Shown: positions 1-15,656, counted from the stretch's first letter. The stretch: 64,000 nt of DNA from Gammaproteobacteria bacterium (GCA_965202915.1 OZ241847.1:2194242-2258241), one strand, 5' to 3'. A program made the numbers and translations. Notes: generated by a model from the sequence alone, not told the origin.

Positions 1-947
1 GCTGACGACAAGCCTTTTGCCAGGGTCATGGTATCGGGCTGAAAGCCAAACATGGTGGCACCAAAATCCTTGCCCGTTCGGCCAAACGCACAAATAACCT
101 CATCGTCAAGAAACAGGATATTATTATCCCGCAAAAGTCGTTGAACGCGTGGAAAGTAATCCCTGGGAGGCACTATTACGCCACCCGCGCCATTGATTGG
201 TTCAGCAATAAACGCAGCGATTGTCTCCGCTCCTTCGGTGTCGATTAATTCCTCAAGTTGATTGATCAGACGATCACAAAAAGCACTTTCCGACTCGCCA
301 TTTAAACCATTTCTATAGTAGTGAGGAGCATCTATGCGAAGTATGCCCAGAGCGTCGAATGGGAGATTAAAATGAGCATGATTTGCGGCCAGCCCGGTCA
401 GCGAAGCGGCGGCGACGGTCAATCCATGATAAGCATTATGTCGTGAAATAATTTTTCTTTTCTCAGGCGTACCCAGTATATGATTATAGTAACGCACAAT
501 TTTAACAAGTGAATCATTGGCATCGCTTCCTGAGTTGCCAAAAAATACCTTCGCCCCGCTGATATTCACCATTTCACTCAGTTTGTCAGCTAAATCAATG
601 CCCTCTTGATGTGTTTTCCCGCCAAATAAATGACTATAAGACAGGCGTTCCAGTTGCCCGGAGATGGCCTCTACCAGTTCCTCATTCCCATAGCCCAATG
701 AGGCGCACCATAATCCGGCCAGACCTTCTATGTACTTTTTCCCCTTATCGTCATATACATATATGCCCTTACCCTTAGAAAACTTTATTTGCTCCGGTGC
801 GCATAAATTAGTGCTTGGATATAAAACACTGCTCATTATATTGCTTTCCTCATATGAACAAAACCAATCGCGACGTTCAGACCAGCTTTCCGGTTTATTT
901 ATCTGTATTAAATTATAGTCATTTAATTCTTTATAAACCATCGACAT
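1..947 (-). CDS. Class III (omega-type) PLP-dependent aminotransferase. The 3' end is truncated by the window edge. The start codon is the reverse complement of 945-947.
   Basis: Reverse-strand translation from the ATG at 947 gives MSMVYKELNDY...GLWCASLGYGNEELVEAISGQLERL...FIAEPINGAGGVIVPP...LFLDDEVICAFGRTGKDFG, which fits the class III aminotransferase fold. It is not in the ORF track because it runs off the window. GC is near the backbone value. Confidence 0.7.
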   Translation of the reverse strand, partial: MSMVYKELNDYNLIQINKPESWSERRDWFCSYEESNIMSSVLYPSTNLCAPEQIKFSKGKGIYVYDDKGKKYIEGLAGLWCASLGYGNEELVEAISGQLERLSYSHLFGGKTHQEGIDLADKLSEMVNISGAKVFFGNSGSDANDSLVKIVRYYNHILGTPEKRKIISRHNAYHGLTVAAASLTGLAANHAHFNLPFDALGILRIDAPHYYRNGLNGESESAFCDRLINQLEELIDTEGAETIAAFIAEPINGAGGVIVPPRDYFPRVQRLLRDNNILFLDDEVICAFGRTGKDFGATMFGFQPDTMTLAKGLSS

Positions 948-1076
948 ATTTTCACTTAATCTGTGAATATATCTCACTGATGGCGTTCGCAATGTTTATC
1001 AGGTGGCTTGTTTAGCCTTAAAGCAGGCACAAACCCTTAGCCCACACAACCGCGCGACAGCCTTTATTCCGGGAGA

Positions 1077-1124
1077 AACATTGGCTGAACGCAACATTGG
1101 CTGAACGCAACATTGGCTCACGCC
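1077..1124. repeat. Tandem direct repeat, three copies of a 16-nt unit (aacattggctgaacgc), in the intergenic region between the aminotransferase and the first TMTC-like gene.
   Basis: Read directly from the sequence: aacattggctgaacgc aacattggctgaacgc aacattggctcacgcc. Confidence 0.8.
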
Positions 1125-1259
1125 GGCATTTGCCACGCCACCCCCTATGCCTGGCGGCATACATACCGTTGACGCATCACCATGGGGTCATTAAAATATT
1201 CCCGTGTCGCACTACGGACTGGAATCTTCCCTCACACTTAATAATGAGAATCATCAAAA

Positions 1260-3146
1260 GTGAGTAGGCAATCAAATTTCAATGCCAGAAAACGCGGCAA
1301 CAGGAACCGACGCCGGCAAGCCAAATCGCAACCGGTTTCGCCAACAAGCTCAAAGCCATCAGCGACAATATCAGCAAGGGAAAGTATCCATATTACCCCG
1401 GCGCCGCACGGGCCGGAGTCACCCGTCTCCGCCGCGGCACCGGAAGCCGCCATCGCAACCGTATTCGCGCTGCCGGCACTATGCCTGTTAATCACCCTCA
1501 GTTACCTGCCCGCAACCTGGGCGGGGTTGGTGTGGGACGACGTCGTACTGACGATGGCCCAACCGTTGCAACATCTGTCCGGCCTATGGGATATCTGGTT
1601 CGCGCCCCGTTCCCTTTCCCAGTTTGAGGGACACTACTGGCCGCTTCTCTATACGTCTTTCTGGCTGGAGAATCGATTGTGGGGCGTCACCCCGGTCGGC
1701 TATCATATTGTCAACCTTGTACTACATGGCTTGGTCACAGTACTGCTATGGCGCCTGTTACTAAGGCTGGCCGTTCCCGGTGCCTGGTTTGCGGCGGCGG
1801 TGTTCGCGGTACATCCCCTGCACGTGGAGTCCGTGGCATGGATCATCGGACGCAAGGACGTGCTGGCCTCACTGTTTTATCTGGCCTGCGTGCTGAGTTA
1901 CCTGCATTTCATCGAGGCCCGGCGGCGCCGGTTTTATGCCGCGGCACTGGCACTGTTCATGGCGGGTCTGTTGTGCAAATCCATCCTGGTCACGCTGCCC
2001 GTATCGCTACTGATCTGGCACTGGTGGCAACAGGGGCGCGTGACGCCGGCCGACGTGCGCAGAGTGCTGCCGTTCCTGCTGCTGGGGCTGTGCGTCACGA
2101 TCGCCGACGTCTTGTTCTACAAGAGCAGGGATCCCACCGCCTTTGACTATTCAATCGTTGAACGGCTACTGATCGCGGCGCAGGCATTGTGGTTCTACCT
2201 GGGAAAACTGGTCTGGCCGACGCAACTGGCGGTCATTTACCCGCGCTGGGAGGTCGGCGTCGCCAACCCGCTGGCCTGGGGGTGTTTGATGGCCGCCTTC
2301 GCTGCGGTGGCGGCGCTGTGGTTCGGGCGCCACCGCATCGGTCGGGGGCCGCTGGCGGGTGCACTGTTCTTCGTGGTGACGCTGTCGCCGACGCTGGGCT
2401 TCGTGGACTATGGCTACATGCTGTACTCCTTTGTCGCCGACCGCTACCAATACTTGGCCGGGGCCGGTGTGATTGCAACACTGGCCGCAGCCGTAACCCT
2501 GGGCATGGGCAGACTGCCGGGCGCATACCGGCGCGGAGCGCAGGGCATGGCGGTGCTGCCGCTGGCCGCACTGGGCGTCATCACCTGGAACCAGGCGGGA
2601 ATCTACCGGGACAACTACACTTTTTACAGCCACGTCCTCTCTCTCAACCCGCAGGCCCGCTTCGCCCACCACAGTATCGGCCTGGAGTATCAAAAGCAGG
2701 GCCGCCACGAAGAGGCACTTGCCGCTTTTGAAACCGACTATCGTCTTGCCCCGGAGCAGCCGTCCCCACGGGTGCGCATGAGCAAGGCCCAGACCAGCAT
2801 CGGAACGTCGCTTGCGGCACTGGGCCGGATCCAGGAAGCGGAGGAGCACTTCCGGCGCGGGGTTGAGATCGCCCCGGACTTTCCGGGGGCCTACGATCAT
2901 CTGGGCGGGTTCCTGATCACGCACAAGCGTTACCGGGAGGCCCTCGAAGTTTTTCAAGCCGTCATCACCATAACGCCCGGCAATGCAAGGTTTCACGTCG
3001 GCCTGGGGGTCTCGCAGGCGGGCTTGGGACGGCTGGATGAGGCCTTGCAGAGCTACGAGCGGGCGCTGTTGATAGACCCCTTGCAGGAGCAGGCGCTAAG
3101 CAATCGCGCCAGCCTGTTGAAGTTCAGAGAGAGTGGCGGCGGATAG
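1260..3146 (+). CDS. Membrane glycosyltransferase-like protein with a DUF1736 domain and C-terminal TPR repeats (TMTC-like, paralog 1). A GTG start is predicted.
   Basis: 628 aa. It has a K/R-rich N-terminal tail, several TM segments with GHYWPLLYTSFWLE...GYHIVNLVLHGL...AVHPLHVESVAWIIGRKD (DUF1736-like), and TPR-like repeats in the C-terminal third. GC looks well above the backbone. Confidence 0.7.
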   Translation: MSRQSNFNARKRGNRNRRRQAKSQPVSPTSSKPSATISARESIHITPAPHGPESPVSAAAPEAAIATVFALPALCLLITLSYLPATWAGLVWDDVVLTMAQPLQHLSGLWDIWFAPRSLSQFEGHYWPLLYTSFWLENRLWGVTPVGYHIVNLVLHGLVTVLLWRLLLRLAVPGAWFAAAVFAVHPLHVESVAWIIGRKDVLASLFYLACVLSYLHFIEARRRRFYAAALALFMAGLLCKSILVTLPVSLLIWHWWQQGRVTPADVRRVLPFLLLGLCVTIADVLFYKSRDPTAFDYSIVERLLIAAQALWFYLGKLVWPTQLAVIYPRWEVGVANPLAWGCLMAAFAAVAALWFGRHRIGRGPLAGALFFVVTLSPTLGFVDYGYMLYSFVADRYQYLAGAGVIATLAAAVTLGMGRLPGAYRRGAQGMAVLPLAALGVITWNQAGIYRDNYTFYSHVLSLNPQARFAHHSIGLEYQKQGRHEEALAAFETDYRLAPEQPSPRVRMSKAQTSIGTSLAALGRIQEAEEHFRRGVEIAPDFPGAYDHLGGFLITHKRYREALEVFQAVITITPGNARFHVGLGVSQAGLGRLDEALQSYERALLIDPLQEQALSNRASLLKFRESGGG

Positions 3147-3391
3147 TGCTAAAGGGCTCAAGATAAATATATTCTGCGCGGCAAAGCGGGAACATCGGCC
3201 AATAACACCGAGGAAAGGCATCACACACCACAACCAGATCGTGGCCATTCACGCCGACCAAGAGCGAATGAACCGGCAGGTACTCACACCCCACCTCAAA
3301 AGACCAGTTGTCATTGAACGACATATTCAAGATTCCGATCTTACGATTCGGATGGTTTCGGTGATAATGGTGGGCAGGGGGGCAGGGTCAC

Positions 3392-3841
3392 TCATATTCT
3401 CTTTTGTGGCTTCTCCAGCATTTTTCCAAGCTGATTCAGTTTTCTGTTAAGAAGTTGCCCGTCTTTTAGCTGACATTCCCATATCCGCAATACTTTCCAT
3501 CCGTTGTTTTTAAGCGTCTTGTTTACCAGCCTGTCACGTTTCTTGTTGGCATATATTTTTTTAACCCAAAAATCTCTGTTGTTTTGGGGAACTTGGCCGT
3601 GCTTTGGGCAATCATGCCAGAAACATCCATCCATAAAGATCGCAAGCTTACTGTTTGGAAATACAATGTCTGGCTTGCCGAAAATCGGGTATCTGCGTCG
3701 CCATCCTATCACATGATTTCGCTTCAATATTTTAAGCAGTTTCCCTTCGGTTGATTTGTTTCCAGTAGAACGCACCTTACCCATAATCCATGAACGTTTT
3801 TCTTTTGAATAGACGTCAACCATTTTTCTTGACGTTGTCAA
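3392..3841 (-). CDS. vsr: Very-short-patch-repair endonuclease Vsr.
   Basis: 149 aa. Canonical Vsr motifs are present: RSWIMGKVRSTGNKSTE...RYPIFGKPDIVFPNSKLAIFMDGCFWHDCPKH. It overlaps the upstream GHKL gene by 26 nt. GC is low. Confidence 0.9.
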   Translation of the reverse strand: MTTSRKMVDVYSKEKRSWIMGKVRSTGNKSTEGKLLKILKRNHVIGWRRRYPIFGKPDIVFPNSKLAIFMDGCFWHDCPKHGQVPQNNRDFWVKKIYANKKRDRLVNKTLKNNGWKVLRIWECQLKDGQLLNRKLNQLGKMLEKPQKRI

Positions 3842-5477
3842 GCCTAAACAATAAAAATGAAATTAGACTTAGAATATCAAGGCAACTATTTTCTGGAAAT
3901 AATATATTTGATGTTGTCCTAGGTTCATGGTGCGTTGGATTTCTGAATGCTTGCACCAAACCAACTGAAAGAAATTGTTGACCCCTTTGCATGTTAAGTT
4001 CTGTGTCGTCGGAAAGGTCTGAAATTTGAAGTATTGGAAGCCTGGTTATTGTTGTTCTCCCTCTCTCGTTGTGTGATTCAAAACTAAAAGATTTATGCAT
4101 CAAATCAGTAGATGAATAATTAACACCAGCCTTATCTCTAATTTCCCTTTCATAAATCACCACTCCCTCTTTTGCAGCATCCAGATATCGGGCATTTTTA
4201 TAATCTTCGTACAGTCGATCCCTGATAAGCTGATGCAAATTTCTCCAATGATAATAAGGGTAAGAAGGTATAAGTTTTTTAAACTCGACAAACAGCCGAT
4301 TTGATTCAATAGTTTCTATTTCAGGAAAATCTTCAATCAGTTTTTCAGTAATAACCTCAATACTATTCTGAATTTCCTCCGGCATAGAATTTTTCCAGTC
4401 TTCCAGACCAATATCGCCAAGGCTGTTATCAACCTCGGCTATTTTCTTTTCTTTACGCTTTCTACGCCAATCCAATTGAACGAACTGGACACATTTCTCA
4501 AGATATGTATGAAGTTTGCTAGTTTGTAAATACCCCCAGTTTAGGTTTTGTCTGTTAGTGGAAATTACGTCCTCTGAAAAATCTTCTATAAAATCCACTT
4601 CCAACCATCCCGTCATATAAGAAAAGAAATGACTGGACGTGCTATCAGAAAATTGATAAGGAGATTGCACGAGTTTCCCCCGCGAAAACAAAGAAATACC
4701 CCTTGAATCAAATCTTGGTGCAATGGGCTTTTCAGGCGTAATGATCTTTCCCTGAATCTCAGACCGGTGCTCATAATCTGATTCTATGTTTGAAAAATCC
4801 TCGGGGAAATTCCAAGAAAATTCTTCACCAAATGCGGAGAAGTGCATATCATTGGACAACATTACCGGGTCTTCATCGTTACGCCTTACGGTAACGGAAA
4901 AATCTTCATCGAAAATAAAAAACCTTGCTATGCTGTTGGCAAGAAATTTTTCCGAAAAATCAGATTCTCTATTGATGTTTGTAAGTATTATTTGAGTTCC
5001 GGATTGACCATCTTCAACAATTTTGTCAATTACTTGCGGGATCATTAAATATTTCCCTCTCGTGGAGTTCATTAAATCATCCCAATCCATCGTAAAAATA
5101 TTTCTTTTTCCCTGTTGAACAGTGTTTACGGTAATTGTCCGAACAATCCCAAAGAATGAAAGCTTGCCCAAACCCTTTTTACCGATAACCTTCCTACCTC
5201 TCGGAGTCAACTCTTCTCCATCTTCTCTGCGGTTTCTCCCAATAACAAGAAATTTCTTGTCAATATCATTAAAAGACATTCCTGTTCCATTGTCCGTTAC
5301 AATAATTTCTTTTTCATTAATATCATTCAACTGCACTTCCACTTTTGTGGCATCTGCATCATATGCGTTGGCTAGCAGCTCACTTAAAACCGGAGGAAGA
5401 GTTGAGTACATACGAACTCCAAGGTGCTCTATAACTCTTGGGTCAAACTTCATCGTCAATTGATTAGATTCCAGCAT
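3816..5477 (-). CDS. GHKL (Bergerat-fold, HATPase_c) ATPase of the MORC/MutL-like type with no HisKA domain. It is a candidate restriction or repair-associated ATPase.
   Basis: 553 aa. Motif I is ELLANAYDADA, motif II is VTDNGTGMS and motif III is GKKGLGKLSFFG. There is no TM segment or phospho-acceptor region. It lies in an operon with dcm and vsr. Confidence 0.75.
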   Translation of the reverse strand: MLESNQLTMKFDPRVIEHLGVRMYSTLPPVLSELLANAYDADATKVEVQLNDINEKEIIVTDNGTGMSFNDIDKKFLVIGRNRREDGEELTPRGRKVIGKKGLGKLSFFGIVRTITVNTVQQGKRNIFTMDWDDLMNSTRGKYLMIPQVIDKIVEDGQSGTQIILTNINRESDFSEKFLANSIARFFIFDEDFSVTVRRNDEDPVMLSNDMHFSAFGEEFSWNFPEDFSNIESDYEHRSEIQGKIITPEKPIAPRFDSRGISLFSRGKLVQSPYQFSDSTSSHFFSYMTGWLEVDFIEDFSEDVISTNRQNLNWGYLQTSKLHTYLEKCVQFVQLDWRRKRKEKKIAEVDNSLGDIGLEDWKNSMPEEIQNSIEVITEKLIEDFPEIETIESNRLFVEFKKLIPSYPYYHWRNLHQLIRDRLYEDYKNARYLDAAKEGVVIYEREIRDKAGVNYSSTDLMHKSFSFESHNERGRTTITRLPILQISDLSDDTELNMQRGQQFLSVGLVQAFRNPTHHEPRTTSNILFPENSCLDILSLISFLLFRLDNVKKNG

Positions 5478-5489
5478 AATAAAACTATC

Positions 5490-6530
5490 TCAGCCCGAGT
5501 AAAAAGATTTCGCTATTCTGTAAGCAAGTTGCGGTGGCACTGCATTGCCTATTAGCTTGGCTGCGATCATTGAACTTTCACACGCAAAAACATAGTCTTC
5601 GCTGAACGTTTGTAGTGTTGCACCTTCTCTTAGGGACAATCCTCTGTTCTCCTCGGGATGGGCAAATCGACCATTTGAAATCCCGTTAAATCTCGTTGTA
5701 ATTGTTGAAGAGGGTTTATCCCACCTCAATCTCCCATAAACATCCCGAAAAGAATTATCTTTGCCTTTGTAGGTGTTCAATTGAAGCTCGGGGTCGTCTT
5801 TCCATGCGCTCCTTGTCCCGCCGTCTTTGGGTGTTAGCTTGAGCCGTCTCAAATTTTTTTCGGATAACGATGAAACTGTATCCATGAAATTATTTTCATC
5901 CTTATAACCGGATTGCAGAACGGGAAATCCATTATGGGTCCCTATAAATTCCTTCAATACGGATTCTTTCTCCGGTTGGGGAAGATCAATCGATTTTTTT
6001 ACCCTGGAAGCAATCAAGATAAATCTCTTTCTGCTTTGCGGAACTCCATAATACTTGGCATTGATAATATCCTCGACAATCTTATATTCTTTTTCAAGTT
6101 TCCGACAAAATTTGTCAAGCCCACTTTCCGCTTTGTTTCTTTTTATTCCCGGAACATTTTCTATAATTACATAACCCGGTTTGTAGTAACAGACAAAGCG
6201 CCAAAAATGATCAAGCAGTCCTCTGGTGTTCTCCGATGATCTTTTGTTCGTATTCAGGGTGGTCCAGTGCTGGCATGGGCTGCACCCTATAAAGATCAAA
6301 GAGTCGTCATTGCGTTTAATCCCACAATTTTTTTCCAGAAAAGTTCGTGGTGTGTCTTCTATATCTTTTAGAAAAAATTTTGTCCCCGGATGATTTGCCT
6401 CATATGTCTCTTTACAATCCTCATCCACATCTATCCCGGCAACAACCTTTACTCCGGCCATCTTTAACCCTTGGGACATGCCGCCGGCACCGCAAAAAAA
6501 ATCAACCGCTCTTAAGGATTTTTTTCTCAT
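5490..6530 (-). CDS. dcm: DNA (cytosine-5)-methyltransferase, Dcm-type.
   Basis: 346 aa. Motif I is DFFCGAGG, motif IV is GCSPCQHWT (PCQ), motif VI is ENV, motif VIII is QSRKRFILIA and motif X is GNAVPP. Confidence 0.9.
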   Translation of the reverse strand: MRKKSLRAVDFFCGAGGMSQGLKMAGVKVVAGIDVDEDCKETYEANHPGTKFFLKDIEDTPRTFLEKNCGIKRNDDSLIFIGCSPCQHWTTLNTNKRSSENTRGLLDHFWRFVCYYKPGYVIIENVPGIKRNKAESGLDKFCRKLEKEYKIVEDIINAKYYGVPQSRKRFILIASRVKKSIDLPQPEKESVLKEFIGTHNGFPVLQSGYKDENNFMDTVSSLSEKNLRRLKLTPKDGGTRSAWKDDPELQLNTYKGKDNSFRDVYGRLRWDKPSSTITTRFNGISNGRFAHPEENRGLSLREGATLQTFSEDYVFACESSMIAAKLIGNAVPPQLAYRIAKSFYSG

Positions 6531-8872
6531 TCGCCACCGCCCAAACTGGCTATTAATGTTACTATATGTGCCGCAACCGCGGACGAGGCAGCACGCACGA
6601 CAGAATCTTCGTCATATTCCTCCCGGCCATCGGAATTATCTTCGGAGTCACTGACAAGTCTCTTATACATTGCTAATGTGAGAATGCCCACCCCCACCCT
6701 GAAGCGGTGCCTGATGATCTCTCTCTTACCCTCATCTGATTCTTTGGAAATTAAGTACAAGAGATATTTATTGGCTTTGTTCACATATATGGTTAGCGTT
6801 TCTCCTCTGGACACATGACCGCCCGACTCTTCATTGTAGTTATGTTCATCCCAATATTCTTGCTCCACCCACTCAATATTCGGAAATTCCCGAGCCGGTC
6901 TCTCTTGATTGTTTGTGTCTGTTTCATCCCCGGGCGGGTTTCTTTGAGTTTCTTCCGCACTGGCAATTTTGATCATTACGTCAAAAGTCAGAGGATCTGT
7001 TCTTTCCGGGTTTGAGTCATCAAAGCCAAACTGAACGGCAATTTCATCTCCTACTTTTGCCCCCGCGGGAGTTATGACTTTTATTCGGAATTTTCCATTA
7101 CGCAGAGAACCCGAATGTGGCAATATATCAGGTGATGGGTGAATAAACTCCCCTCGGTTGGCATCTCTTATCAAATAATCATTTTGAGCGTCTGTTCTAC
7201 ATTCAATTCGTCTGTAAGAATTTATGGGAACACTCTTAACATTGCCCTCCTCCAAGTGCGTGGGAGTTAAATATGTGGGGAACAATTTCCCTTCATATTG
7301 ATCCTCACCTCCGGATGTTGCAATCTGACTGTCAACAATACTTCCAACATCAAATAGTTCTTGAAGATCCGGATTATCTTTAACAAGATTGGAAAGAAAT
7401 TCTTTATCGGTCTGCTCTTCTATTTGCTCGCTAATACGACGGTTTTTTATTTCTCTTGCATATTCCCTAAGTTCTCCGCTCCCGGCCAAGGCATCTATAA
7501 TAATTTTCTTTAGTTCTCTCGTGAGCCCTATGTCCGCCATTCTTTCCCTGTCCGATTTAAACACGGCGGCTCGCGCCGTATTATCCATGGCATTACAATC
7601 TATTTGAACAATTAAATGGTTTCTCAAATCATCCAGTCGCGCCTTCCGCAACAGACTGGCTCTGTCCGCAGATTGGGACTGACCGTTGATCGTGTAGAAC
7701 ATTCTGTATGGCTGTTTGCGCAAATAATCCTTCATTTTCTTCAACCCAAAATAAGATATTCGGATAGTCCCCAAATCCGAATTTTCAGAATTTTCAATTA
7801 CGTTTTCCAAGTCAACTTCGCTTTCCTCACTTCTTTCATCATCGGATTTGAGCACTATATTCATACCGGAAAAAGTTCTCGGTGCAATACCCTCCGCTCT
7901 AAGACCGCTCCTTGTGGGTTGAGCATCAAAATCATAAAGACGAACAGGCAAGGCACAATTTATAAGGTTGGTCGTAAGCGCATCATATAGTCCTATATCA
8001 ACCGCACGGGCACGAGGCCCTATATCGTATTCATATAACTTCACAATGCTGCCACCATTGATGACGACACCGATATCCTCTCTGCCAAAAGCCTTGATTT
8101 CATCGGTTTCAAAACAGGCAATTTCTCCGTCGGGACAAAAATACTCAACCACTGGCAAATCCTCTCCTTCTCGAACTCCTCTTACCCTTATCAAAGTCCA
8201 TCCCCATAGACCATCCGAACCGTAAGTGGTTCTTTTGGACAGAATAAACTTATACATCCCCGCCCTGATATCTGCTCGGGTACAAAAAGGTATGGATCCG
8301 GTGCTACCCATATTAAATCGACCTTGGACAAACGGAATGCCTTCCTTATTCTTTTCTCCAAGAGATAAAAAAGTTTTTCCAAAATCTGTATGATTTTGCC
8401 CCTCACCAAAATCAACTATCGTATAGTTTGGACAAATATCATTTCTCCTTCCTGTTCTCTTAATACCAATCAAAACACTTTTTTCAGCCAGATCAGTCCT
8501 TTGATTCGGGCTTAACAAAGCCAACCTGCCTTCTTGAACTTTGGGGAAAAAGTGTTTGACAGCCTCGCTCATATCTTGGGGAGCTGATTCACCATAAAAA
8601 TCTATTTGCTCTTCCTTTGCCCTGCGCATAAGGATTGCGTCAATGGAATTAATGATTAACTCTGCCAACGCACCGACTGGTTGGCTCGTTTGGACGCTCA
8701 CCCTGTCCCAATTTTTATCCGCGCCGCCGTAAGGCTTCCAATTTTCATCAGCGCTAAATTCAGGCTGGCTTTCCATGAACCGATTAACGTCGTCGGCTGA
8801 CAAAGCACCGAGAAACTTATTCGCTATTAACTTTGAAAGTGGGCTGTTGAAAAATTTTCTCGAATCATTCAT
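6527..8872 (-). CDS. Large protein with an N-terminal GHKL ATPase-like head and a ~550-aa uncharacterised C-terminal region. It is the first gene of the low-GC cassette.
   Basis: 781 aa. Bergerat motifs are AELIINSIDA (motif I), IVDFGEGQNH (motif II) and QGRFNMGSTGS (motif III). I recognised no motifs in the C-terminal region. It overlaps the dcm start by 4 nt, which suggests translational coupling. Confidence 0.6.
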   Translation of the reverse strand: MNDSRKFFNSPLSKLIANKFLGALSADDVNRFMESQPEFSADENWKPYGGADKNWDRVSVQTSQPVGALAELIINSIDAILMRRAKEEQIDFYGESAPQDMSEAVKHFFPKVQEGRLALLSPNQRTDLAEKSVLIGIKRTGRRNDICPNYTIVDFGEGQNHTDFGKTFLSLGEKNKEGIPFVQGRFNMGSTGSIPFCTRADIRAGMYKFILSKRTTYGSDGLWGWTLIRVRGVREGEDLPVVEYFCPDGEIACFETDEIKAFGREDIGVVINGGSIVKLYEYDIGPRARAVDIGLYDALTTNLINCALPVRLYDFDAQPTRSGLRAEGIAPRTFSGMNIVLKSDDERSEESEVDLENVIENSENSDLGTIRISYFGLKKMKDYLRKQPYRMFYTINGQSQSADRASLLRKARLDDLRNHLIVQIDCNAMDNTARAAVFKSDRERMADIGLTRELKKIIIDALAGSGELREYAREIKNRRISEQIEEQTDKEFLSNLVKDNPDLQELFDVGSIVDSQIATSGGEDQYEGKLFPTYLTPTHLEEGNVKSVPINSYRRIECRTDAQNDYLIRDANRGEFIHPSPDILPHSGSLRNGKFRIKVITPAGAKVGDEIAVQFGFDDSNPERTDPLTFDVMIKIASAEETQRNPPGDETDTNNQERPAREFPNIEWVEQEYWDEHNYNEESGGHVSRGETLTIYVNKANKYLLYLISKESDEGKREIIRHRFRVGVGILTLAMYKRLVSDSEDNSDGREEYDEDSVVRAASSAVAAHIVTLIASLGGGE

Positions 8873-8924
8873 TTATGAAAATTCACCTAGGTTTTGGTAT
8901 TTAATCAGTACATATCCATAACCG

Positions 8925-9420
8925 TTAAAAATCATTCCCGGAACCAAATGGCCACCCACTTGCGGAATAGGCCCGGATGTCATCATCGCCGGCATATTTG
9001 AACCAAAAAACCGCCGCCGGCACAACCGAACATTTGCCAAGCCGGCAGTTTTCCACCACCACCTTGAGCATGGCGTATTCGCCGTTGACTTGGCAGGCGA
9101 AAGCCAGCATATCGAATGCTACTTGATACGCCAAATGATGTCGAGTTTAATATATCCAGTTTGACCATTACGCATGTCGGTGATGTCGAGATCTTCACGC
9201 AGTGCTTTATCGCCATTGGTTAGGACCATTTTGTAACTGTATTTGTCGCCGCCCGCTAGAATCGCCGGACATACGGACTCCCCGAACCAAGAATGATAAC
9301 ATTAGCTCCCTCTACAATCCAGGTATTTCCCAACGCCTGTCCTTCCAGAACACCTATCGACCAAACCATCGGTTACTGACAGAACAACATCTACGGACGT
9401 GGCGACAGCGGTAATTGGGT
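8925..9420 (-). pseudogene. Degraded ORF fragments (frameshifted remnants) at the boundary between the low-GC cassette and the second TMTC-like gene.
   Basis: Reverse-strand reading gives ...ILAGGDKYSYKMVLTNGDKALREDLDITDMRNGQTGYIKLDII* and then, in another frame, ...KVVVENCRLGKCSVVPAAVFWFKYAGDDD... The fragments are short and out of frame, and I recognised no family. Confidence 0.3.
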
Positions 9421-9788
9421 TATCATGGAATCATCCGATTCACACCATCTCCAGAATATACGGGCGGCAGCATCGGACACTTCCTTGGGTATGTGTGCTA
9501 CCCGCACCTCCAATTAACACGGCCGAGTTGAGAATGTGAACCAAGTATTTCGTTGGTAATTACCCCACATCCTTCGACTTATCAGGTAATGAGACAAGAC
9601 TCGGCAAGGTTACGGGACTTCCCCGGTCACCGTCTGTGCACAATCTTATAATGCTTTTCTGCGAAAATTATGAGGATTGTGTAAAATCCTCTCTTGTATA
9701 GGATTAGGATACCCTCTTGCCACACTTCAGACTGAAATCTGCCTTCTCCTCAAGAAAGGAGTGGCGCAAGGTGAACAGATAATCGGAT

Positions 9789-11648
9789 ATGGCGGCCCGA
9801 AAAAACCGAAACAAGGCCCGGCGCAGGCAAATGAAGCTGCAAACCACCGCCAGGCGCCCCGGCACGGTGCGTAGCCGGACCGGCCCCGTACCCATCAAAT
9901 CGTCGCCGGGCGGGTTGCAATCGCTTTTTTCCGGGCTCAAGCGGAGCGTACTTCACGGGGACCCGATCCCACCCGCACTCGCGGCCACGGCGCTGTGGCT
10001 GCTGATACTCATCAGTTACCTGCCCGCGACCTGGGCCGGTTTCGTGTGGGACGACTTCGCGTTCACGGAGGCCGAACAGGTACTGCGCCCATCCGGTCTT
10101 TGGGATATCTGGTTCAAGCCGCACTCGCTGCAGAATGAAGGCCATTACTGGCCGCTCCTCTATACGACCTTCTGGCTGGAGCACAAGTTGTGGGGGCTGG
10201 ACCCGACCGGTTATCATATCGTCAACCTGCTGCTGCACGGGTTGACCACGCTGTTGTTGTGGCGCCTGCTGCTGCGGCTGGCCGTGCCGGGCGCCTGGTT
10301 CGCGGCGGCGGTGTTCGCCGTGCACCCCCTGCACGTGGAGTCGGTGGCATGGGTTATCGGACGCAAGGACGTGCTGGCGGGGCTGTTCTCCGTGGCCTGC
10401 GTGCTGAGCTATCTGCGTTTCGTGGAAGCTGGTCGCCGCGCACGCTATACGCACTACTTTCGGGCACTGGCGCTGTTCGTGGCGGGACTGTTGAGCAAAT
10501 CCATTGTCGTCACCCTGCCGGTGTCGCTGTTGATCTGGCACTGGTGGAAGCAGGGTCGCGTAGCCGTGACCGACGCACTGAGGACGCTGCCGTTCCTGCT
10601 GCTGGGGCTCGGCATCACGATCATCGACTGGTGGTACTACAAGGACCGGGAAGAGATTGTCCTGGAGGACTACTCGTTGATCGAGCAGACGCTGAACGCG
10701 GCGCACGCGCTGTGGTTCTACGTTGGCAAACTGGTCTGGCCGGCGGAACTGGCAGTCATCTACCCGCGCTGGGAAATCAACGTCAGCGAGCCACTGGCCT
10801 GGGCGTATCTGGTCACCGCCGTCGCGGTGGTGTGGCTGCTGTGGTTCTACCGCGACCGCATTGGCCGGGGGCCGCTGGCGGGGGTGCTGTTCTTCGTGGT
10901 GACGCTATCACCGACCCTGGGGTTCGTCGAGTACGGTTTCATGCAGTTCTCGCTGGTCGCCGACCGCTATCAGTACCTGGCCGGGATCGGAGTGACGGCG
11001 GGCCTCGTGGCCGCCGCGGCCCGCGTTGCAGGCCGGCTGTCGGGTACGCCGGCGAGGGGCGTACAGGCCGCGGCGGTGCTGCTGCTGGTCGTGCTGGGAA
11101 CCATCAGTTGGAACCAGGCGGGCATCTACCGCGACAACTTCACGTTCTACCAGCATATCATCGCTCTCAACCCGCAGGCCAGGAACGCCTGGTACAACCT
11201 TGGCAGAGAGTATTCCATGCAGGGCCGCACGCAGGATGCGCTGGCCGCGTATCTCACCGCCGGCGAGCAGCGCCCCGACCACGTCTGGGCGCATATCGGC
11301 GCCGGGCAGATGGCCGCGGAACTGGGAAGGCTCGCCGAGGCGGAGATGTACCTGCAACGCGCGCTTGCGGTTGACCCGAGTTTCCCGGAAGCCCTCAACA
11401 ATATGGGAGCGCTGCGGCTCAGACAAAAACGCTACAGCGAGGCGCTCGAACTCTTTGAGACCCTGATTGAGATGCAGCCCGAGTACGCCAAGGTTTATTC
11501 TGGCATAGGCGTGGCCCTGGCCGGACTCAGGCGGTTTGAAGAGGCGTTGCGGAGTTTTGACCGCGCGCTTGAACTGGACCCGTCACTGGAAGAGGCGCGG
11601 GTCAACCGCGAGCACGTATTGCGGAACTCCAAAAGCGAGAGCAGGTAA
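9789..11648 (+). CDS. Membrane glycosyltransferase-like protein with a DUF1736 domain and C-terminal TPR repeats (TMTC-like, paralog 2).
   Basis: 619 aa. It has the same architecture as the 1260..3146 product, about 60-70% identical across the TM core (GHYWPLLYTTFWLE...AVHPLHVESVAWVIGRKD), with a diverged N-tail and TPR region. Its stop overlaps the start of the next gene. Confidence 0.75.
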   Translation: MAARKNRNKARRRQMKLQTTARRPGTVRSRTGPVPIKSSPGGLQSLFSGLKRSVLHGDPIPPALAATALWLLILISYLPATWAGFVWDDFAFTEAEQVLRPSGLWDIWFKPHSLQNEGHYWPLLYTTFWLEHKLWGLDPTGYHIVNLLLHGLTTLLLWRLLLRLAVPGAWFAAAVFAVHPLHVESVAWVIGRKDVLAGLFSVACVLSYLRFVEAGRRARYTHYFRALALFVAGLLSKSIVVTLPVSLLIWHWWKQGRVAVTDALRTLPFLLLGLGITIIDWWYYKDREEIVLEDYSLIEQTLNAAHALWFYVGKLVWPAELAVIYPRWEINVSEPLAWAYLVTAVAVVWLLWFYRDRIGRGPLAGVLFFVVTLSPTLGFVEYGFMQFSLVADRYQYLAGIGVTAGLVAAAARVAGRLSGTPARGVQAAAVLLLVVLGTISWNQAGIYRDNFTFYQHIIALNPQARNAWYNLGREYSMQGRTQDALAAYLTAGEQRPDHVWAHIGAGQMAAELGRLAEAEMYLQRALAVDPSFPEALNNMGALRLRQKRYSEALELFETLIEMQPEYAKVYSGIGVALAGLRRFEEALRSFDRALELDPSLEEARVNREHVLRNSKSESR

Positions 11649-13414
11649 TGGCGAAACGGAAAAACCCCCGCCCCGCCACTCGCCGGCGCCGACAACCTGG
11701 GGCAGCGGCGCCGACAACGGCAACGATGCCCTGGCGGTGGCGCGCGGGCGACGCCTTATTTGCCGCCGACCGCCCGCGGCTCGCCGGCGACGGCGAACAC
11801 TGGACGTATTTCTGGCCGCTGCTGGGCGCGGCCCTGCTGCTGCGCGCTGCCATCGCCCTGTGGGGTGACTTTGTGCTGCATCCGGACGAGATCATGCAAT
11901 ACCTGGAGCCGGCCCACTATGTGGCCTTCGGCAATGGCGTCCTCTACTGGGAATATCTCCACGGCGCACGCAGCTGGCTGATCCCGGGCGCGATCGCCGG
12001 CGTGCTGAAGGCGCTGGATGGCTTGGGGCTGGCGCAGCCGGCCATCTATATCGCCGTGGTGAAACTGTTGTTCTGCCTGCTGTCGCTGTCGGTGCCGTGG
12101 GCCATGTACCGCTTCACGCAAATCACGGTCAACGAGCGATCTGCTCGGCTGGCGCTGATCTTCGGCTGCTTCTGGTACGAACTGGCGGCGCTGGCGCACA
12201 AACCCTTCACCGAATTGTTCAGCACTTCCATTTTCATGGTCGTGCTCGCTCTGTCCGTGGGCAGGGAAGCGGAAAGACCCGCCAGGCTGTTTGCCATCGG
12301 CCTGCTGGCGGCACTCAGCGGTGCGGTGCGCCTGCAGTACGCACCCGTGGCGTTGCTGCTGTTGTTGCTGCGCTCGGTATCCCTGCGCAACGGCGTTGCC
12401 GGGCTGGTGTCGTTATGGGCGGGCGCCGGGCTGCTGACGCTGCTAGTGGGTATCTTCGAATGGCAGACCTGGGGGGCGCCGTTTCATTCCTACCTGAGCA
12501 ACTTCTTTATCAATCTCGCCATTGACCCCGCACGCGCCGGTGAATCAAGCCGATGGCTTCTGTTGGGGCAGTTGGCCGCGGCCAGCGGCGGCATGGCACT
12601 GATCGCCTTTGCCGCTGCGCTGCCCAGGGGGCGGCGGCATCTGCTCATCCTGGTGACGAGCGCGGTGATACTCGTCCTGCACCTGCTCCCGGAGCATCGC
12701 GAATACCGCTTCATCCACGTCCTGATCCCGTGCTGGTTGATGCTGCTGGCGGCCTGGATCGCGCGCTGGGGCGACGGATTGTCCGGCGAACGAGGCCGGA
12801 TATCCGCACTGGCGCGGCGCTGGGGCGCGGCGGCGGTGCTGGCCTTCGGCATCCCAGCCCTACTCAATGCGTTTCCCTGGCAGAGCCGGGTGTACCAGAG
12901 TTTCTCCGTGGAAAAACCGGTGTACTACTTGCGCAATCAGGACCCGATATTTGAGATCATGTCTTTCCTGGCCGCCCAGGACGACGTGCACGGAGCTCTC
13001 TACCATACCCGGGAATACAACGCATACTTCAGCACTGGCGGCTATTACTACCTGCACCACGACGTCCCTTTCTATACCGCGCAAGACACCTGGCAAACCA
13101 TCAGGGAACGGCACCCGGCGGTGCCTCAGGAATCGTTGGTTTCCCATATCGTGACCGAGGCCGACGGCCCCGCCATCCAGGGGTTCGAACGACTGCTCCG
13201 GCGTGGAAACCTGGCGCTGTGGCGGCGCCGGGACAACGACAGTGCAGTCCCCCGCTGGCGCGAGCACGTGATCAAGGTAAGCCATGCGGACCTAAACGAC
13301 CTGGTGAGCAGAACCATGCGGCGCCTGAACGCCTCTTCCATGCTCGACCTTTTCGTAGCCGATGACTTGTACTGGGTGGAGGCGCCACCGTTGTTTGAGT
13401 CGGCGGATGAATAA
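11648..13414 (+). CDS. GT22-like (PIG-B/ALG9/ALG12-type, Glyco_transf_22) membrane mannosyltransferase homologue.
   Basis: 588 aa. The GT22 signature LHPDEIMQYLEPAHYVAFGNG (HPDE..Q..E) sits near the N-terminus. The protein is multi-TM and GC-rich. Its start overlaps the upstream stop (TAATG). Confidence 0.6.
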   Translation: MAKRKNPRPATRRRRQPGAAAPTTATMPWRWRAGDALFAADRPRLAGDGEHWTYFWPLLGAALLLRAAIALWGDFVLHPDEIMQYLEPAHYVAFGNGVLYWEYLHGARSWLIPGAIAGVLKALDGLGLAQPAIYIAVVKLLFCLLSLSVPWAMYRFTQITVNERSARLALIFGCFWYELAALAHKPFTELFSTSIFMVVLALSVGREAERPARLFAIGLLAALSGAVRLQYAPVALLLLLLRSVSLRNGVAGLVSLWAGAGLLTLLVGIFEWQTWGAPFHSYLSNFFINLAIDPARAGESSRWLLLGQLAAASGGMALIAFAAALPRGRRHLLILVTSAVILVLHLLPEHREYRFIHVLIPCWLMLLAAWIARWGDGLSGERGRISALARRWGAAAVLAFGIPALLNAFPWQSRVYQSFSVEKPVYYLRNQDPIFEIMSFLAAQDDVHGALYHTREYNAYFSTGGYYYLHHDVPFYTAQDTWQTIRERHPAVPQESLVSHIVTEADGPAIQGFERLLRRGNLALWRRRDNDSAVPRWREHVIKVSHADLNDLVSRTMRRLNASSMLDLFVADDLYWVEAPPLFESADE

Positions 13415-13654
13415 AAGTTTGTGGTCACGATCTTACACGGGCAGCCCGATGCCGATACCGTTCGCAGGTGTGGCCCACCGGGCCAGGTGGTCGGCGATGC
13501 TTTCCGACCCCATGGAGCCCCGCGCGGCCCCGGAATAGTCTTCGCAACCGCTCATTGGTTTGCCGGCGACAATATGGCACACTCTCCGGCAGTTTGATTG
13601 TAATGTTGATCCTGTCTTTTGATTTGCTTTTTCATTGCTTTAGGAGGCCCGCCC

Positions 13655-14404
13655 ATGTCCAAAAACCTAAGCGACTTTTCAACCCTGAGCCTGGACTGCT
13701 ATGGCACACTCATTGACTGGGAGACTGGCATTTGGGACGCGCTACAGCCCCTGATCCGGCGATCCGGACGAGACGACGTCGTGCGCCGCCAAGGACTCGA
13801 GGCGTTCGCCCGATTTGAAAATGCCCGCGAAATGGAGACACCGGAGCTGCCCTACCCGGAGATTTTGCAACGAACCCACGCCGACGTGGCGGCCTACCTG
13901 GGAATGACCACCTCGGTGGAACTGGACCGCGAGTTTGCCTGCTCCATCGCCCACTGGCCGGCCTTTGCCGACACCGCCGACGCGCTGCGCCGCCTGCGGA
14001 AGCACTATAAACTGGTGATCCTGTCCAACGTCGACCGGGCCGGATTCGCCGCCTCGGCGACCAAGCTCGGCGTCGCCTTTGACGCCGCCTACACAGCGGA
14101 AGATATCCGCTCCTATAAACCCGCCGCCGCCAACTTCCACTACCTGATCGAACATCTCCAGGCCGATCTCGGCGTTAAGCGCGAAGCCATCCTGCACACC
14201 GCCCAGAGCCTGTTCCACGACCACGCACCGGCCAACGCCTTCGACCTCGCCAACGTCTGGATCGACCGCCAGGGGCTGTCGCATAGCGACAACTGGGGCG
14301 CCACCGCCAGGCTCGACAAGCGCCCCGACGTGGACTTCCTGTTCCCGACCCTGGCGGCGATGGCGGACGCAGTGGAAGGGGAGGTCGAGCCGCCCCAGGG
14401 TTGA
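13655..14404 (+). CDS. HAD-superfamily hydrolase, L-2-haloacid dehalogenase type II-like.
   Basis: LSLDCYGTLIDWE (DxYGT motif), ILSNVD and SYKP are present. The start was taken at MSKNLSDF with AGGAGG 8 nt upstream. The ORF track starts earlier, at 13619. Confidence 0.7.
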   Translation: MSKNLSDFSTLSLDCYGTLIDWETGIWDALQPLIRRSGRDDVVRRQGLEAFARFENAREMETPELPYPEILQRTHADVAAYLGMTTSVELDREFACSIAHWPAFADTADALRRLRKHYKLVILSNVDRAGFAASATKLGVAFDAAYTAEDIRSYKPAAANFHYLIEHLQADLGVKREAILHTAQSLFHDHAPANAFDLANVWIDRQGLSHSDNWGATARLDKRPDVDFLFPTLAAMADAVEGEVEPPQG

Positions 14405-14712
14405 AAGCGGTCATGCACTGTACCAGTTAAGGATATAAATCCAGTGGTGGGTCTGGTACCTGGCGTCGTTCCTGATTCCGCACTGATGGCGGGGCGGGGA
14501 GCAAGTGCACAGCAGGGGCCAGGACTGAACACTTCGGCAGTGGGTGCTGCCTGGCGTCTTGCTGGTTGTACAAACGCGCCGGTGCCACGTTGCTGGCGGT
14601 GCTGCTTCCCACCAATTGCGCCGCCGGGACATTTTTAATGAACTATGTCCACAAAAAATTCACTTGTCCGAGCGAAAGCTTTGTAGTGCCCGCCCTGGTG
14701 CGCGAGATTCAC

Positions 14713-15498: not shown

Positions 15499-15656
15499 GG
15501 CCAGAGGGGGGGCAGCCCTGTCCTTCGATGTTATCGCGTAATGAAAACAAGCTAACCGTAGCGGCGTTGCGCACCCTGTCTTGGGACTGGGGGCGCACCT
15601 TACCCGAACGGGTACGGTTTTTTCTTTTACTCTTTCTGCGCATGGTGCCTACCCAA

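What the first reader, a model, noticed from the sequence alone, without database searches (positions are those of the whole stretch)
1260..11648. Cassette sits between two diverged TMTC-like paralogs: nested islands with a degraded scar
The genes at 1260..3146 and 9789..11648 encode the same DUF1736+TPR architecture. They are near-identical across the TM core and divergent at the N-tail and TPR end. The low-GC cassette lies exactly between them. A ~900-nt stretch (8880..9780) holds only frameshifted ORF fragments. This looks like an AT-rich mobile module inserted into, or beside, a tandem gene pair inside an already foreign GC-rich block. No integrase, transposase or recognisable flanking direct repeats are seen.
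Basis: seen in the sequence. Interest (0 to 1): 0.5.

Follow-up and report, generated by a model that had tools for sequence, protein, structure and literature searches.

The report
Defence cassette inserted between glycosyltransferase paralogs
A 6.6-kb AT-rich DNA-methylation defence cassette, still carrying broken pieces of the genes that flanked it in another genome, has been spliced into the 70-base gap between two neighbouring glycosyltransferase genes of an uncultured gammaproteobacterium; this is a clear but fairly ordinary case of nested horizontal gene transfer.

Summary
Genes A (1260-3146) and B (9789-11648) are old paralogs, 62% identical. They have a GT-C/PMT_2-like membrane domain plus TPRs; DUF1736 was not detected. 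Related islands in two sponge-symbiont genomes have the A and B orthologs 70 nt apart, followed by the same GT22 gene, so those are empty sites.

The 6.6 kb between A and B (GC 0.37-0.50, flanks 0.62-0.64) holds four intact minus-strand genes: a 781-aa GHKL ATPase with no Pfam family, a C5 cytosine methyltransferase, a GHKL-Ymh fusion and Vsr. The "scar" is not target debris. It is the 3' third of a porphobilinogen synthase gene (hemB, 8952-9265). A fragment of a GBBH-like gene (3241-3348) lies at the other end.

In two other genomes the same cassette sits between intact hemB and that GBBH-like gene, so the insert is an imported chromosomal chunk with donor flanks. No recombinase or target duplication is present. 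A second strain differs at 20.7 sites/kb in the flanks but at one site across 3165-9914.

Verdict: a new member of a known kind, of moderate interest.

The parts
1260..3146 (+). Paralog A: multi-pass membrane (GT-C/PMT_2-like) domain plus C-terminal TPR array, 628 aa, GC 0.62
   Evidence: ORF. Pfam TPR_1/TPR_2 E 1e-21 to 1e-22; PMT_2 24.7 bits, just below the cut-off. Orthologs at 67-73.5% in L002, L007 and L014, closer than paralog B at 62%.
3147..3164 (.). Probable remainder of the original A|B spacer, left of the insertion point
   Evidence: The last strain differences before the near-identical tract are at 3147 and 3164. In L007 the L002-like spacer likewise runs 19 nt past the A stop before diverging.
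3165..9788 (.). The inserted segment as a whole (about 6.6 kb): cassette plus donor-flank remnants
   Evidence: It replaces a 70-nt spacer seen in L002 and L014. Window 3264-9259 aligns contiguously with L079 and 3433-9259 with L077, at 72-73%. There is one difference to strain L078 across 3165-9914, against 141 expected.
3241..3348 (-). Remnant of the 5' part (residues 12-47 of 121) of a GBBH-like_N (PF06155) gene, from the right flank of the cassette's hemB-adjacent locus
   Evidence: tblastn with the L077 and L079 proteins gives E 1e-8 and 4e-7. The same gene is intact just downstream of the cassette in L077 and L079. See also alignment A6.
3392..3841 (-). Vsr very-short-patch repair endonuclease
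   Evidence: Pfam PF03852 E 3e-16; PADLOC Vsr 7e-18. It is 68-74% identical to the Vsr region after the cassette in L076, L077, L079 and L081.
3816..5477 (-). GHKL ATPase (HATPase_c_3) fused to a C-terminal Hypoth_Ymh (TIGR02391) domain, 553 aa
   Evidence: Pfam PF13589 E 2e-22 and PF09509 E 5e-19. NCBIfam BbrUII/HgiDII restriction-enzyme family scores 224 bits on residues 8-379, below the 550-bit cut-off. PADLOC REase_II 4e-32 and Aga_HEPN 5e-10.
5490..6530 (-). C5 cytosine DNA methyltransferase (Dcm-type), 346 aa; its start overlaps the stop of the upstream gene
   Evidence: Pfam PF00145 E 6e-52; PADLOC MTase_II 2e-85.
6527..8872 (-). 781-aa protein with no Pfam family: N-terminal GHKL ATPase plus transducer fold (paraMORC-like), C-terminal beta-rich and helical domains of unknown function
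   Evidence: No Pfam, NCBIfam or PADLOC hit. More than 350 full-length homologs, all unnamed. AlphaFold model pLDDT 81.6. Foldseek top hits are the GyrB 43K fragment and Hsp90, E 4e-9. Invariant E71/N75/D78, D154/G156/G158 and G184...G192. Always followed by a Dcm gene.
8873..8951 (-). Spacer between the hemB remnant and the 781-aa gene start, conserved with the hemB-adjacent loci; possible promoter region (inferred)
   Evidence: Alignment A7 shows it conserved in window, L007, L077 and L079 but not in loci without hemB.
8952..9265 (-). hemB (porphobilinogen synthase, ALAD) pseudogene fragment, codons about 205-316 of about 320, frameshifted
   Evidence: tblastn with the intact L077 HemB gives 38.9 and 42.0 bits, colinear; the shuffled maximum is 23.1. 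Pfam ALAD profile 259-312, E 1.4e-4. The L007 counterpart scores 45.4 bits, E 8e-12.
9266..9788 (.). Unassigned non-coding stretch. It may be further-degraded hemB (only weak colinear matches). Positions 9399-9468 are conserved with L007.
   Evidence: No significant HemB match. blastn to the L007 gap gives 71% over 70 nt, E 3e-7. Alignment A2.
9789..11648 (+). Paralog B: same architecture as A, 619 aa, GC 0.64; its stop overlaps the start of GT22
   Evidence: ORF; TPR hits. Orthologs at 71.5% in L002, L007 and L014, always followed by GT22. Gene callers start it at Met15.
11648..13414 (+). GT22 (Alg9-like) glycosyltransferase, part of the conserved A-B-GT22 block
   Evidence: Pfam PF03901 E 8e-26. 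It is 65-67% identical and syntenic in L002, L007 and L014.

Best explanation
The segment between A and B (about 3165-9788) is a horizontally acquired piece of another bacterium's chromosome. It is not a self-mobile element.

Its core is a four-gene m5C methylation-based restriction-modification-like module, read on the minus strand:
- a paraMORC-like GHKL ATPase (781 aa);
- a C5 methyltransferase;
- a GHKL-Ymh fusion whose N-half resembles HgiDII/BbrUII restriction enzymes;
- Vsr.

In at least two sponge-symbiont genomes this module lies between an intact hemB and a GBBH-like/ubiE operon. The window's copy was cut out of such a locus with the 3' part of hemB on one side and the first ~50 codons of the GBBH-like gene on the other. 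It was joined into the 70-nt spacer between two tandem glycosyltransferase genes, about 18 nt after the A stop. The joining was by illegitimate, recombinase-independent end-joining or microhomology (inferred). The redundant hemB and GBBH pieces decayed, while the four cassette genes stayed intact.

Likely function, inferred from domain content and from Iyer et al. 2008 (PMC2292703): the methyltransferase marks host DNA; the two GHKL ATPases form the ATP-driven restriction or effector part; Vsr repairs the T:G mismatches that 5-methylcytosine deamination creates. Persistence and spread would follow from defence benefit and/or post-segregational killing.

The insertion at this site predates the split between the window's island and the L007 island. 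In L007 most of the cassette was later replaced by an HNH nuclease gene. Within the window's own species the tract has recently been exchanged between strains, probably by homologous recombination through A and B.

Shown: the anatomy, the empty sites, the other locations, the donor-flank remnants and the strain contrast. Inferred: the joining mechanism, the restriction activity and the reason for persistence.
For: Empty site:
- L002 and L014 have the A ortholog, a 70-nt spacer, the B ortholog and GT22.

Same cassette elsewhere:
- L077 and L079 carry adk, intact hemB, the 781-aa gene, Dcm, GHKL-Ymh, Vsr, the GBBH-like gene and ubiE.
- The window aligns contiguously over 5.9-6.1 kb at 72-73%, including the end of hemB.

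Donor flanks in the window:
- hemB codons 205-316 at 8952-9265.
- GBBH-like residues 12-47 at 3241-3348.

Other ectopic copies, also carrying hemB fragments, in unrelated contexts:
- L080, between aroA and hisD.
- L081, next to a phosphatase fragment.

Composition and integrity:
- Cassette GC is 0.41-0.43 in every host, whatever the backbone GC (0.475-0.625).
- The cassette genes are intact and full length compared with homologs.

No mobility machinery:
- No integrase or transposase, and no target duplication.

Separate history from the flanks:
- One difference across 3165-9914 against strain L078, versus 20.7/kb in the flanks; 141 differences expected, P about 5e-60.

Age:
- L007 keeps, at the same insertion point, a 31-codon remnant of the 781-aa gene plus the hemB C-terminus.

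Domain assignments.
Against: - The direction of change is not proven. With the tree (window,(L007,(L002,L014))), one gain plus one clean loss costs as many events as two gains.
- The donor cannot be named. All cassette copies are 72-79% identical, so none is a recent source.
- The window genome's own hemB locus lies outside the 64 kb. An intragenomic relocation from its own hemB locus is therefore not excluded. The hemB fragments have roughly host-like GC in each genome. That fits either decay in place or a local origin.
- No nuclease domain of a classical restriction enzyme was found, so 'restriction-modification' is a contextual inference.
- The strain contrast rests on two metagenome assemblies. 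A mosaic consensus is unlikely, given that the tract edges coincide with the insert, but it is not excluded.
Confidence: 0.75

Rival explanations
1. The unit is, or was, a site-specific integrative element that targets the 3' end of hemB, as many islands target tRNA or other conserved genes. It would carry a copy of the hemB 3' end as its attachment site. The window copy would be a secondary-site integration whose integrase has since been lost.
For: A hemB 3' fragment accompanies the cassette in every ectopic copy seen: window, L007, L080 and L081. In two genomes the cassette sits directly downstream of intact hemB.
Against: No integrase or transposase lies next to the cassette in any of the contexts examined. 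The hemB fragments start at different codons, about 98, 205 and 237. A fragment of the opposite flank (the GBBH-like gene) travels too, which an attachment-site mechanism does not predict. There are no direct repeats at the window junctions. More distant cassettes have no hemB at all.
Confidence: 0.1
2. The arrangement is old and vertically inherited. The cassette and hemB were native here, and the GC-rich glycosyltransferase genes were inserted on either side of them.
For: The L007 island (about 76% identical) carries remnants of the same insert at the same point, so the junction is old. The hemB fragment has backbone-like GC of 0.50.
Against: hemB here is a frameshifted 3' fragment, and the opposite flank is also a gene fragment. 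A, B and GT22 form a tight conserved block with a 70-nt A|B spacer in L002 and L014, and tandem arrays of this family are tightly packed in many other genomes. The neighbourhood around hemB in L077 and L079 (adk, ubiE, ubiB) is absent from the window. The insert tract is about 140-fold less diverged than its flanks between strains.
Confidence: 0.07
3. The two paralogs arose as a long target duplication created by the insertion itself, as described for some restriction-modification insertions.
For: The insert is flanked by two copies of a similar gene in direct orientation.
Against: A and B are only 62% identical. Each has a closer ortholog (67-73.5% and 71.5%) in other genomes, where they are adjacent without any insert. 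The duplication therefore long predates the insertion.
Confidence: 0.02
4. Assembly or binning chimera: an AT-rich fragment from another organism was wrongly joined into a GC-rich region.
For: There are sharp GC steps at both edges, and the source is metagenomic.
Against: The left junction is in an independent Logan assembly and both junctions are in an ENA assembly from another sample. L007 has remnants of the same insert at the same point.
Confidence: 0.02

Closest known systems
MORC/paraMORC GHKL-ATPase restriction-modification operons (Iyer, Abhiman & Aravind 2008, Biol Direct 3:8, PMC2292703; read)
   Same: GHKL plus transducer ATPases are encoded next to a cytosine methyltransferase and a Vsr-superfamily endonuclease. 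Distribution is sporadic and lateral, with insertion into hotspots. In the paper, as here, function is predicted from context only.
   Different: This cassette has two different GHKL proteins. One has no Pfam family. The other is fused to a Ymh (HEPN-like by PADLOC) domain instead of a nuclease. There is no SF-II helicase. Assignment to paraMORC1-5 was not tested.
HgiDII/BbrUII family Type II restriction enzymes with their C5 methyltransferases (NCBIfam NF050001)
   Same: The N-terminal 380 residues of the 553-aa protein match the family profile positions 2-397 (224 bits). A C5 methyltransferase is adjacent.
   Different: The score is far below the 550-bit family cut-off. The C-terminal 260 profile positions are not matched and are replaced by Hypoth_Ymh. 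It is therefore a relative, not a member.
Restriction-modification gene units that move without their own recombinase, seen as presence/absence polymorphisms between colinear genomes (Furuta, Abe & Kobayashi 2010, Nucleic Acids Res 38:2428; cited from my own knowledge, not read here)
   Same: A compact R-M unit is present in some genomes and absent from the same intergenic site in others. There is no transposase or integrase, and its composition differs from the host.
   Different: There is no long target duplication. The unit carries truncated pieces of both genes that flanked it elsewhere, and similar pieces are seen at several different loci.
Eukaryotic TMTC1-4 O-mannosyltransferases (DUF1736 plus TPR)
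   Same: The overall architecture matches: an N-terminal multi-pass GT-C-type membrane domain followed by a TPR array. Here the genes are neighbours of other GT-C enzymes (GT22, TMEM260-like).
   Different: DUF1736 is not detected. The membrane domain matches PMT_2 only weakly. The family is bacterial, occurs in tandem arrays, and its substrate is unknown.

Membership tests
TMTC-like (DUF1736 + TPR) proteins | C-terminal tetratricopeptide repeat array | tested here: met
   TPR_1/TPR_2/TPR_11 and related models, E 1e-16 to 1e-27, in both A and B.
TMTC-like (DUF1736 + TPR) proteins | DUF1736 (PF08409) domain | tested here: not met
   No hit at E<=10 on the whole proteins or on their membrane domains alone. 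It is absent from the precomputed Pfam lists of the 120 best homologs.
TMTC-like (DUF1736 + TPR) proteins | GT-C type (PMT_2-like) multi-pass membrane domain | tested here: inconclusive
   A scores 24.7 bits on PMT_2 against a 26.1-bit cut-off; B has no hit. Most homologs carry PF13231.
Type II restriction-modification system with C5 methyltransferase | C5 cytosine methyltransferase | tested here: met
   PF00145 E 6e-52; PADLOC MTase_II 2e-85.
Type II restriction-modification system with C5 methyltransferase | Cognate endonuclease with a recognisable nuclease domain | tested here: inconclusive
   Only a sub-threshold match of the GHKL half to the HgiDII/BbrUII family (224 vs 550 bits) and PADLOC REase_II. 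No classical restriction-nuclease family (PD-(D/E)xK, HNH) appears among the Pfam/NCBIfam/PADLOC hits of either GHKL protein. Vsr is the only clear nuclease.
Type II restriction-modification system with C5 methyltransferase | Sequence-specific methylation and restriction activity | not testable with these tools
   Needs methylome data and restriction assays.
MORC/paraMORC GHKL ATPase R-M operons | GHKL (Bergerat) ATP-binding motifs | tested here: met
   781-aa protein: invariant E71/N75/D78, D154/G156/G158 and G184..G192 across 40 homologs. 553-aa protein: PF13589 E 2e-22.
MORC/paraMORC GHKL ATPase R-M operons | Transducer (S5-like) domain after the GHKL domain | tested here: met
   The predicted structure (pLDDT 81.6) aligns over 420-470 columns with the GyrB 43-kDa ATPase-plus-transducer fragment and with Hsp90, E 4e-9. 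This is a fold match on a model, not a solved structure.
MORC/paraMORC GHKL ATPase R-M operons | Conserved linkage to a DNA methyltransferase and often to Vsr | tested here: met
   A Dcm gene follows the 781-aa gene in all nine contexts examined (the window plus eight loci). Vsr is found in all except L082.
MORC/paraMORC GHKL ATPase R-M operons | Assignment to one of the named families (MORC, paraMORC1-5) by their specific motifs | not tested
   No profiles of those families were available. The SF-II helicase typical of MORC operons is absent.
Self-mobile element (integrative island, transposon, IS) | Own integrase, transposase or recombinase | tested here: not met
   None in 3147-9788 and none adjacent to the cassette in eight other loci. 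The only trace in the region is a weak rve_3 remnant at 15976-16266, outside the insert.
Self-mobile element (integrative island, transposon, IS) | Target-site duplication or terminal repeats | tested here: not met
   The junction-to-junction local alignment is no better than shuffles, and no repeat family spans the edges. In L007 a GGCGGCGG-type match is borderline: score 21, against a shuffle 95% value of 20.

The most novel reading that the evidence does not exclude
The segment [hemB 3' end - GHKL ATPase - Dcm - GHKL/Ymh - Vsr - GBBH-like 5' end] is a recombinase-less unit that repeatedly relocates among sponge symbionts as one block. On this reading the hemB piece is retained for a reason rather than by accident. 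It would carry the cassette's promoter, or act as a one-sided homology anchor that lets the unit re-enter genomes next to the highly conserved hemB (homology-facilitated illegitimate recombination). The 781-aa Pfam-less GHKL protein would be the ATP-driven restriction component of a still uncharacterised m5C-dependent defence system.
Probability: 0.25. Interest if true: 0.55.

Novelty: new member of a known kind. Interest (0 to 1): 0.35.

Why it matters
This is a clean, well-documented example of nested horizontal transfer in an uncultured host-associated bacterium. An outer glycosylation island is shared across phyla of sponge symbionts, and an inner defence cassette has a traceable earlier address in the form of broken hemB and GBBH-like genes. 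The case shows that restriction-modification-type modules can spread as raw chromosomal chunks without a recombinase, and that they can then sweep between strains through the homology of the genes they were dropped between. It also flags a family of more than 350 unnamed 780-aa GHKL ATPases that are always paired with a C5 methyltransferase. That family is a reasonable target for defence-system testing. None of this overturns current views. R-M mobility, defence hotspots and gene sharing among sponge symbionts are all established themes.

Tried and rejected
- Direct or inverted repeats and att-like sequences at the cassette edges: none above chance.
- Promoter and terminator scan of 3000-10000: counts equal the shuffled expectation, so it was uninformative.
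- Rfam and tRNA scans: only a tRNA-Met at 22076-22152, unrelated to the insert.
- Pfam on individual ORF fragments and whole-frame translations of the scar: only the last ~55 residues of ALAD were recovered.
- A very permissive tblastn showed that everything upstream of 9306 is not significantly hemB. I therefore withdrew my first impression that nearly the full gene is present.
- Sequence-profile search of the 781-aa family against PDB: nothing. The fold search was needed.
- Phage collection: no homolog of the 781-aa protein. Plasmids: only 21-27% relatives on non-mobilizable replicons. No vector was identified.
- One literature search (DUF1736 or sponge) was too broad and returned nothing useful.
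- Target duplication as the origin of A and B was rejected on orthology.

Full report
**What is in the window**

GC content is 0.60-0.66 over 1250-3250 and 9750-15700. It is 0.37-0.46 over 3300-9500 and about 0.51 over the rest of the 64 kb. The rest of the window carries uvrA, nusA, infB and sdhA, so this is a chromosome. UvrA's best named relatives, at 75-80% identity, are Gammaproteobacteria-type MAGs.

Gene A (1260-3146, 628 aa) and gene B (9789-11648, 619 aa) are both on the + strand. B is translationally coupled to a GT22/Alg9-like glycosyltransferase (11648-13414), followed by a HAD hydrolase and a TMEM260-like fragment.

**The two paralogs**

A and B are 62% identical over 550 residues. 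By region:

| Region | Identity |
|---|---|
| N-tail | 37% |
| Membrane core | 71% (peak 92-95% at residues 141-200) |
| TPR end | 44% |

The TPR arrays are unambiguous. DUF1736 is not found at any threshold. PMT_2 is just sub-threshold in A, absent in B, and present in most homologs.

**Relatives and the empty site**

A pattern scan of one genome per species returned 74 loci. As far as their record titles show (sponge-derived taxon names such as Poriferihabitaceae, Spongiihabitans and Entotheonella, and sponge-type bin names), they come from sponge- or coral-associated MAGs. They are labelled as many phyla, and the genes often sit in tandem arrays of two to seven.

Three loci hold clear orthologs of both genes. 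A is 67-73.5% identical to their first gene and B is 71.5% identical to their second, and GT22 follows at 65-67%. Both values exceed the 62% between A and B, so the duplication is older than these islands.

- In L002 and L014 the A ortholog's stop and the B ortholog's start are 70 nt apart.
- L002 and L014 are 98.4% identical over exactly the 5.4-kb A-B-GT22 block and unrelated outside it. The outer GC-rich block is therefore itself transferred between genomes.

**The cassette**

Four intact minus-strand genes fill 3392-8872:

| Coordinates | Product |
|---|---|
| 3392-3841 | Vsr |
| 3816-5477 | 553-aa HATPase_c_3 protein with a C-terminal Hypoth_Ymh domain; its N-half resembles the BbrUII/HgiDII restriction-enzyme family below threshold |
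| 5490-6530 | C5 cytosine methyltransferase |
| 6527-8872 | 781-aa protein with no family hit |

The 781-aa protein has more than 350 full-length unnamed homologs. A 40-sequence alignment shows invariant Bergerat-type motifs. Its AlphaFold model (pLDDT 81.6) matches the GyrB 43-kDa fragment and Hsp90 over about 450 residues. It is therefore a GHKL-plus-transducer ATPase.

This protein is followed by a Dcm gene in every context examined. Vsr is present in all but one, and the GHKL-Ymh gene in the closer relatives. This is the gene content that Iyer et al. 2008 predicted for MORC/paraMORC restriction-modification operons.

**What the 'scar' is**

The stretch 8873-9788 has no ORF above 77 aa. One fragment matches the C-terminus of delta-aminolevulinate dehydratase.

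The decisive result came from the genomic contexts of the 781-aa homologs. In L077 and L079 the order is adk, intact hemB, 781-aa gene, Dcm, GHKL-Ymh, Vsr, GBBH-like gene, ubiE, SCP2, ubiB.

- Window 3433-9259 aligns contiguously with L077 at 72.9%, and 3264-9259 with L079 at 71.6%. Both alignments run into the end of hemB.
- tblastn with the intact L077 HemB places codons 205-256 at 9265-9122 and codons 258-316 at 9119-8952, at 38.9 and 42.0 bits. The maximum for shuffled sequence is 23.1.
- Upstream of about 9306 nothing is significant.
- At the other end, 3241-3348 encodes residues 12-47 of the GBBH-like protein, E 1e-8.

The insert is therefore a chromosomal chunk from a hemB-adjacent locus, with both flanking genes truncated.

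**Other ectopic copies**

- L080 has an 86-codon hemB fragment plus the cassette between aroA and hisD.
- L081 has pieces of hemB codons about 98-216 plus the cassette beside a phosphatase fragment.
- Their right ends also reach into the GBBH-like gene, to about codon 49 in L080 and about codon 25 in L081.

The cassette is 0.41-0.43 GC in all hosts, whose backbones range from 0.475 to 0.625. It was not found on phages, and only distant relatives occur on plasmids.

**Age and dynamics**

L007 is 95% identical to L002 in A and in B-GT22, but it has 1.38 kb where L002 has 51 bp. That gap holds three things:

- an HNH_2 nuclease gene;
- a 31-codon remnant of the 781-aa gene's N-terminus (MNNSEKFSDSELSK... 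against MNDSRKFFNSPLSK... in the window);
- the hemB C-terminus (45.4 bits), in the same order and next to B.

The L002-like spacer continues 19 nt past the A stop in L007. The same insert therefore once sat at the same point in an island only about 76% identical to the window's. This favours one old insertion, a later swap for HNH in L007, and loss in the L002/L014 lineage, although two independent gains cost as many events.

Within the window's own species the picture is different. A contig from another sample (L078) is colinear over 1-14448. It differs at 20.7 sites per kb in the flanks but at a single site across 3165-9914. About 141 differences would be expected, P about 5e-60. The low-diversity tract starts 18 nt after the A stop and ends 126 nt into B, so it is the insert. 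The insert has been exchanged between strains much more recently than its flanks diverged, most simply by homologous recombination through A and B.

**Mechanism and rivals**

There is no recombinase and no target duplication. Both donor flanks are carried, and the hemB pieces differ in length between copies.

Together these points argue for illegitimate joining of a chromosomal fragment and against a hemB-targeting integrative element, which I keep at about 0.1. The remaining rivals fare worse:

- A native-locus reading is contradicted by the truncated flanks, by the missing adk/ubiE neighbourhood and by the empty sites.
- A target-duplication origin of A and B is refuted by orthology.
- A chimeric assembly is contradicted by independent assemblies that contain the same junctions.

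**Verdict**

The 'scar' is reinterpreted as a hitch-hiked hemB fragment. The object is a new member of a known kind: a GHKL-ATPase/Dcm/Vsr restriction-modification-type cassette inserted, without its own mobility genes, into a transferred glycosylation island. Interest is moderate.

Noticed in passing
L002-L075; arrays in L003 10199-20702, L005 1306-17432, L009 1805-13807: By their record titles (sponge-derived taxon names, sponge-type bin names), the 74 loci with close relatives of A/B appear to come from sponge- or coral-associated MAGs. They are labelled as many phyla: Nitrospirales, Latescibacterota, Acidobacteriota, Gemmatimonadota, Spirochaetia, Chloroflexota, Binatia, Entotheonella and Gammaproteobacteria. 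Identity is 42-72%, and the genes often form tandem arrays of up to seven, frequently beside GT22 or TMEM260-like genes. This looks like habitat-specific cross-phylum sharing of a glycosylation toolkit. The scan used two exact peptide patterns, so it is biased towards close relatives.
   Followed up: partly
L002 8174-13610 vs L014 8174-13607: The A-B-GT22 block is 98.4% identical between a MAG labelled Poriferihabitaceae and one labelled Nitrospirales, while their flanks do not align at all. This is either a very recent transfer of exactly this 5.4-kb block or a binning or labelling problem.
   Followed up: partly
L007 8685-9443 (minus strand): At the same A|B site a 252-aa HNH_2 endonuclease gene (PF13391, E 1.6e-13, GC about 0.42) has replaced most of the GHKL/Dcm cassette. 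The site therefore behaves as a small defence-gene hotspot.
   Followed up: partly
window 14449-17500: Colinearity with the second strain (L078) ends at 14448, just after the HAD gene. L078 continues with nadB and rpoE-rseA-rseB-degP, which are not in the window. The window instead has a rearranged TMEM260-like fragment (14594-14873 is inverted relative to L014), a weak integrase-core (rve_3) remnant at 15976-16266, and an AT-rich SGNH/GDSL-like gene at 16330-17304 (GC 0.35-0.39). This looks like a second, strain-variable insertion at the right edge of the GC-rich block.
   Followed up: partly
L083 116-10777: In another MAG a 781-aa-homolog/Dcm/Vsr trio, an Eco57I-type methyltransferase gene and an 827-aa TMEM260_N gene all sit among the genes of the NADH dehydrogenase (nuo) operon.
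   Followed up: no
L081 4817-7575: Next to the ectopic cassette there is a 92-aa alkaline-phosphatase fragment. It lies about 850 bp downstream of a full 542-aa alkaline-phosphatase gene, with two small ORFs between them. This may be a partial target duplication or a second rearrangement.
   Followed up: no
window 1077-1133: Three tandem copies of a 16-nt unit (AACATTGGCTGAACGC; the third is degenerate) lie about 130-180 nt upstream of gene A. The 1001-1500 interval is also the most strain-variable 500 nt in the region, with 28 differences to L078.
   Followed up: no
window 3816-5477 (minus strand): The 553-aa protein joins an HgiDII/BbrUII-like GHKL N-half to a Hypoth_Ymh/TIGR02391 domain. 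PADLOC matches that domain to pAgo-associated HEPN and PD-Lambda-3_B. This suggests a nuclease-domain swap from a DNA-cutting to a possibly RNA-cutting effector.
   Followed up: no
window 9399-9468 and L007 9829-9896: A 70-nt non-coding stretch upstream of gene B is 71% identical between the window and L007, with an almost exact 18-mer (ATCCGATTCACACCATCT). The surrounding pseudogene sequence has decayed. Its function is unknown; it may be regulatory for B.
   Followed up: no
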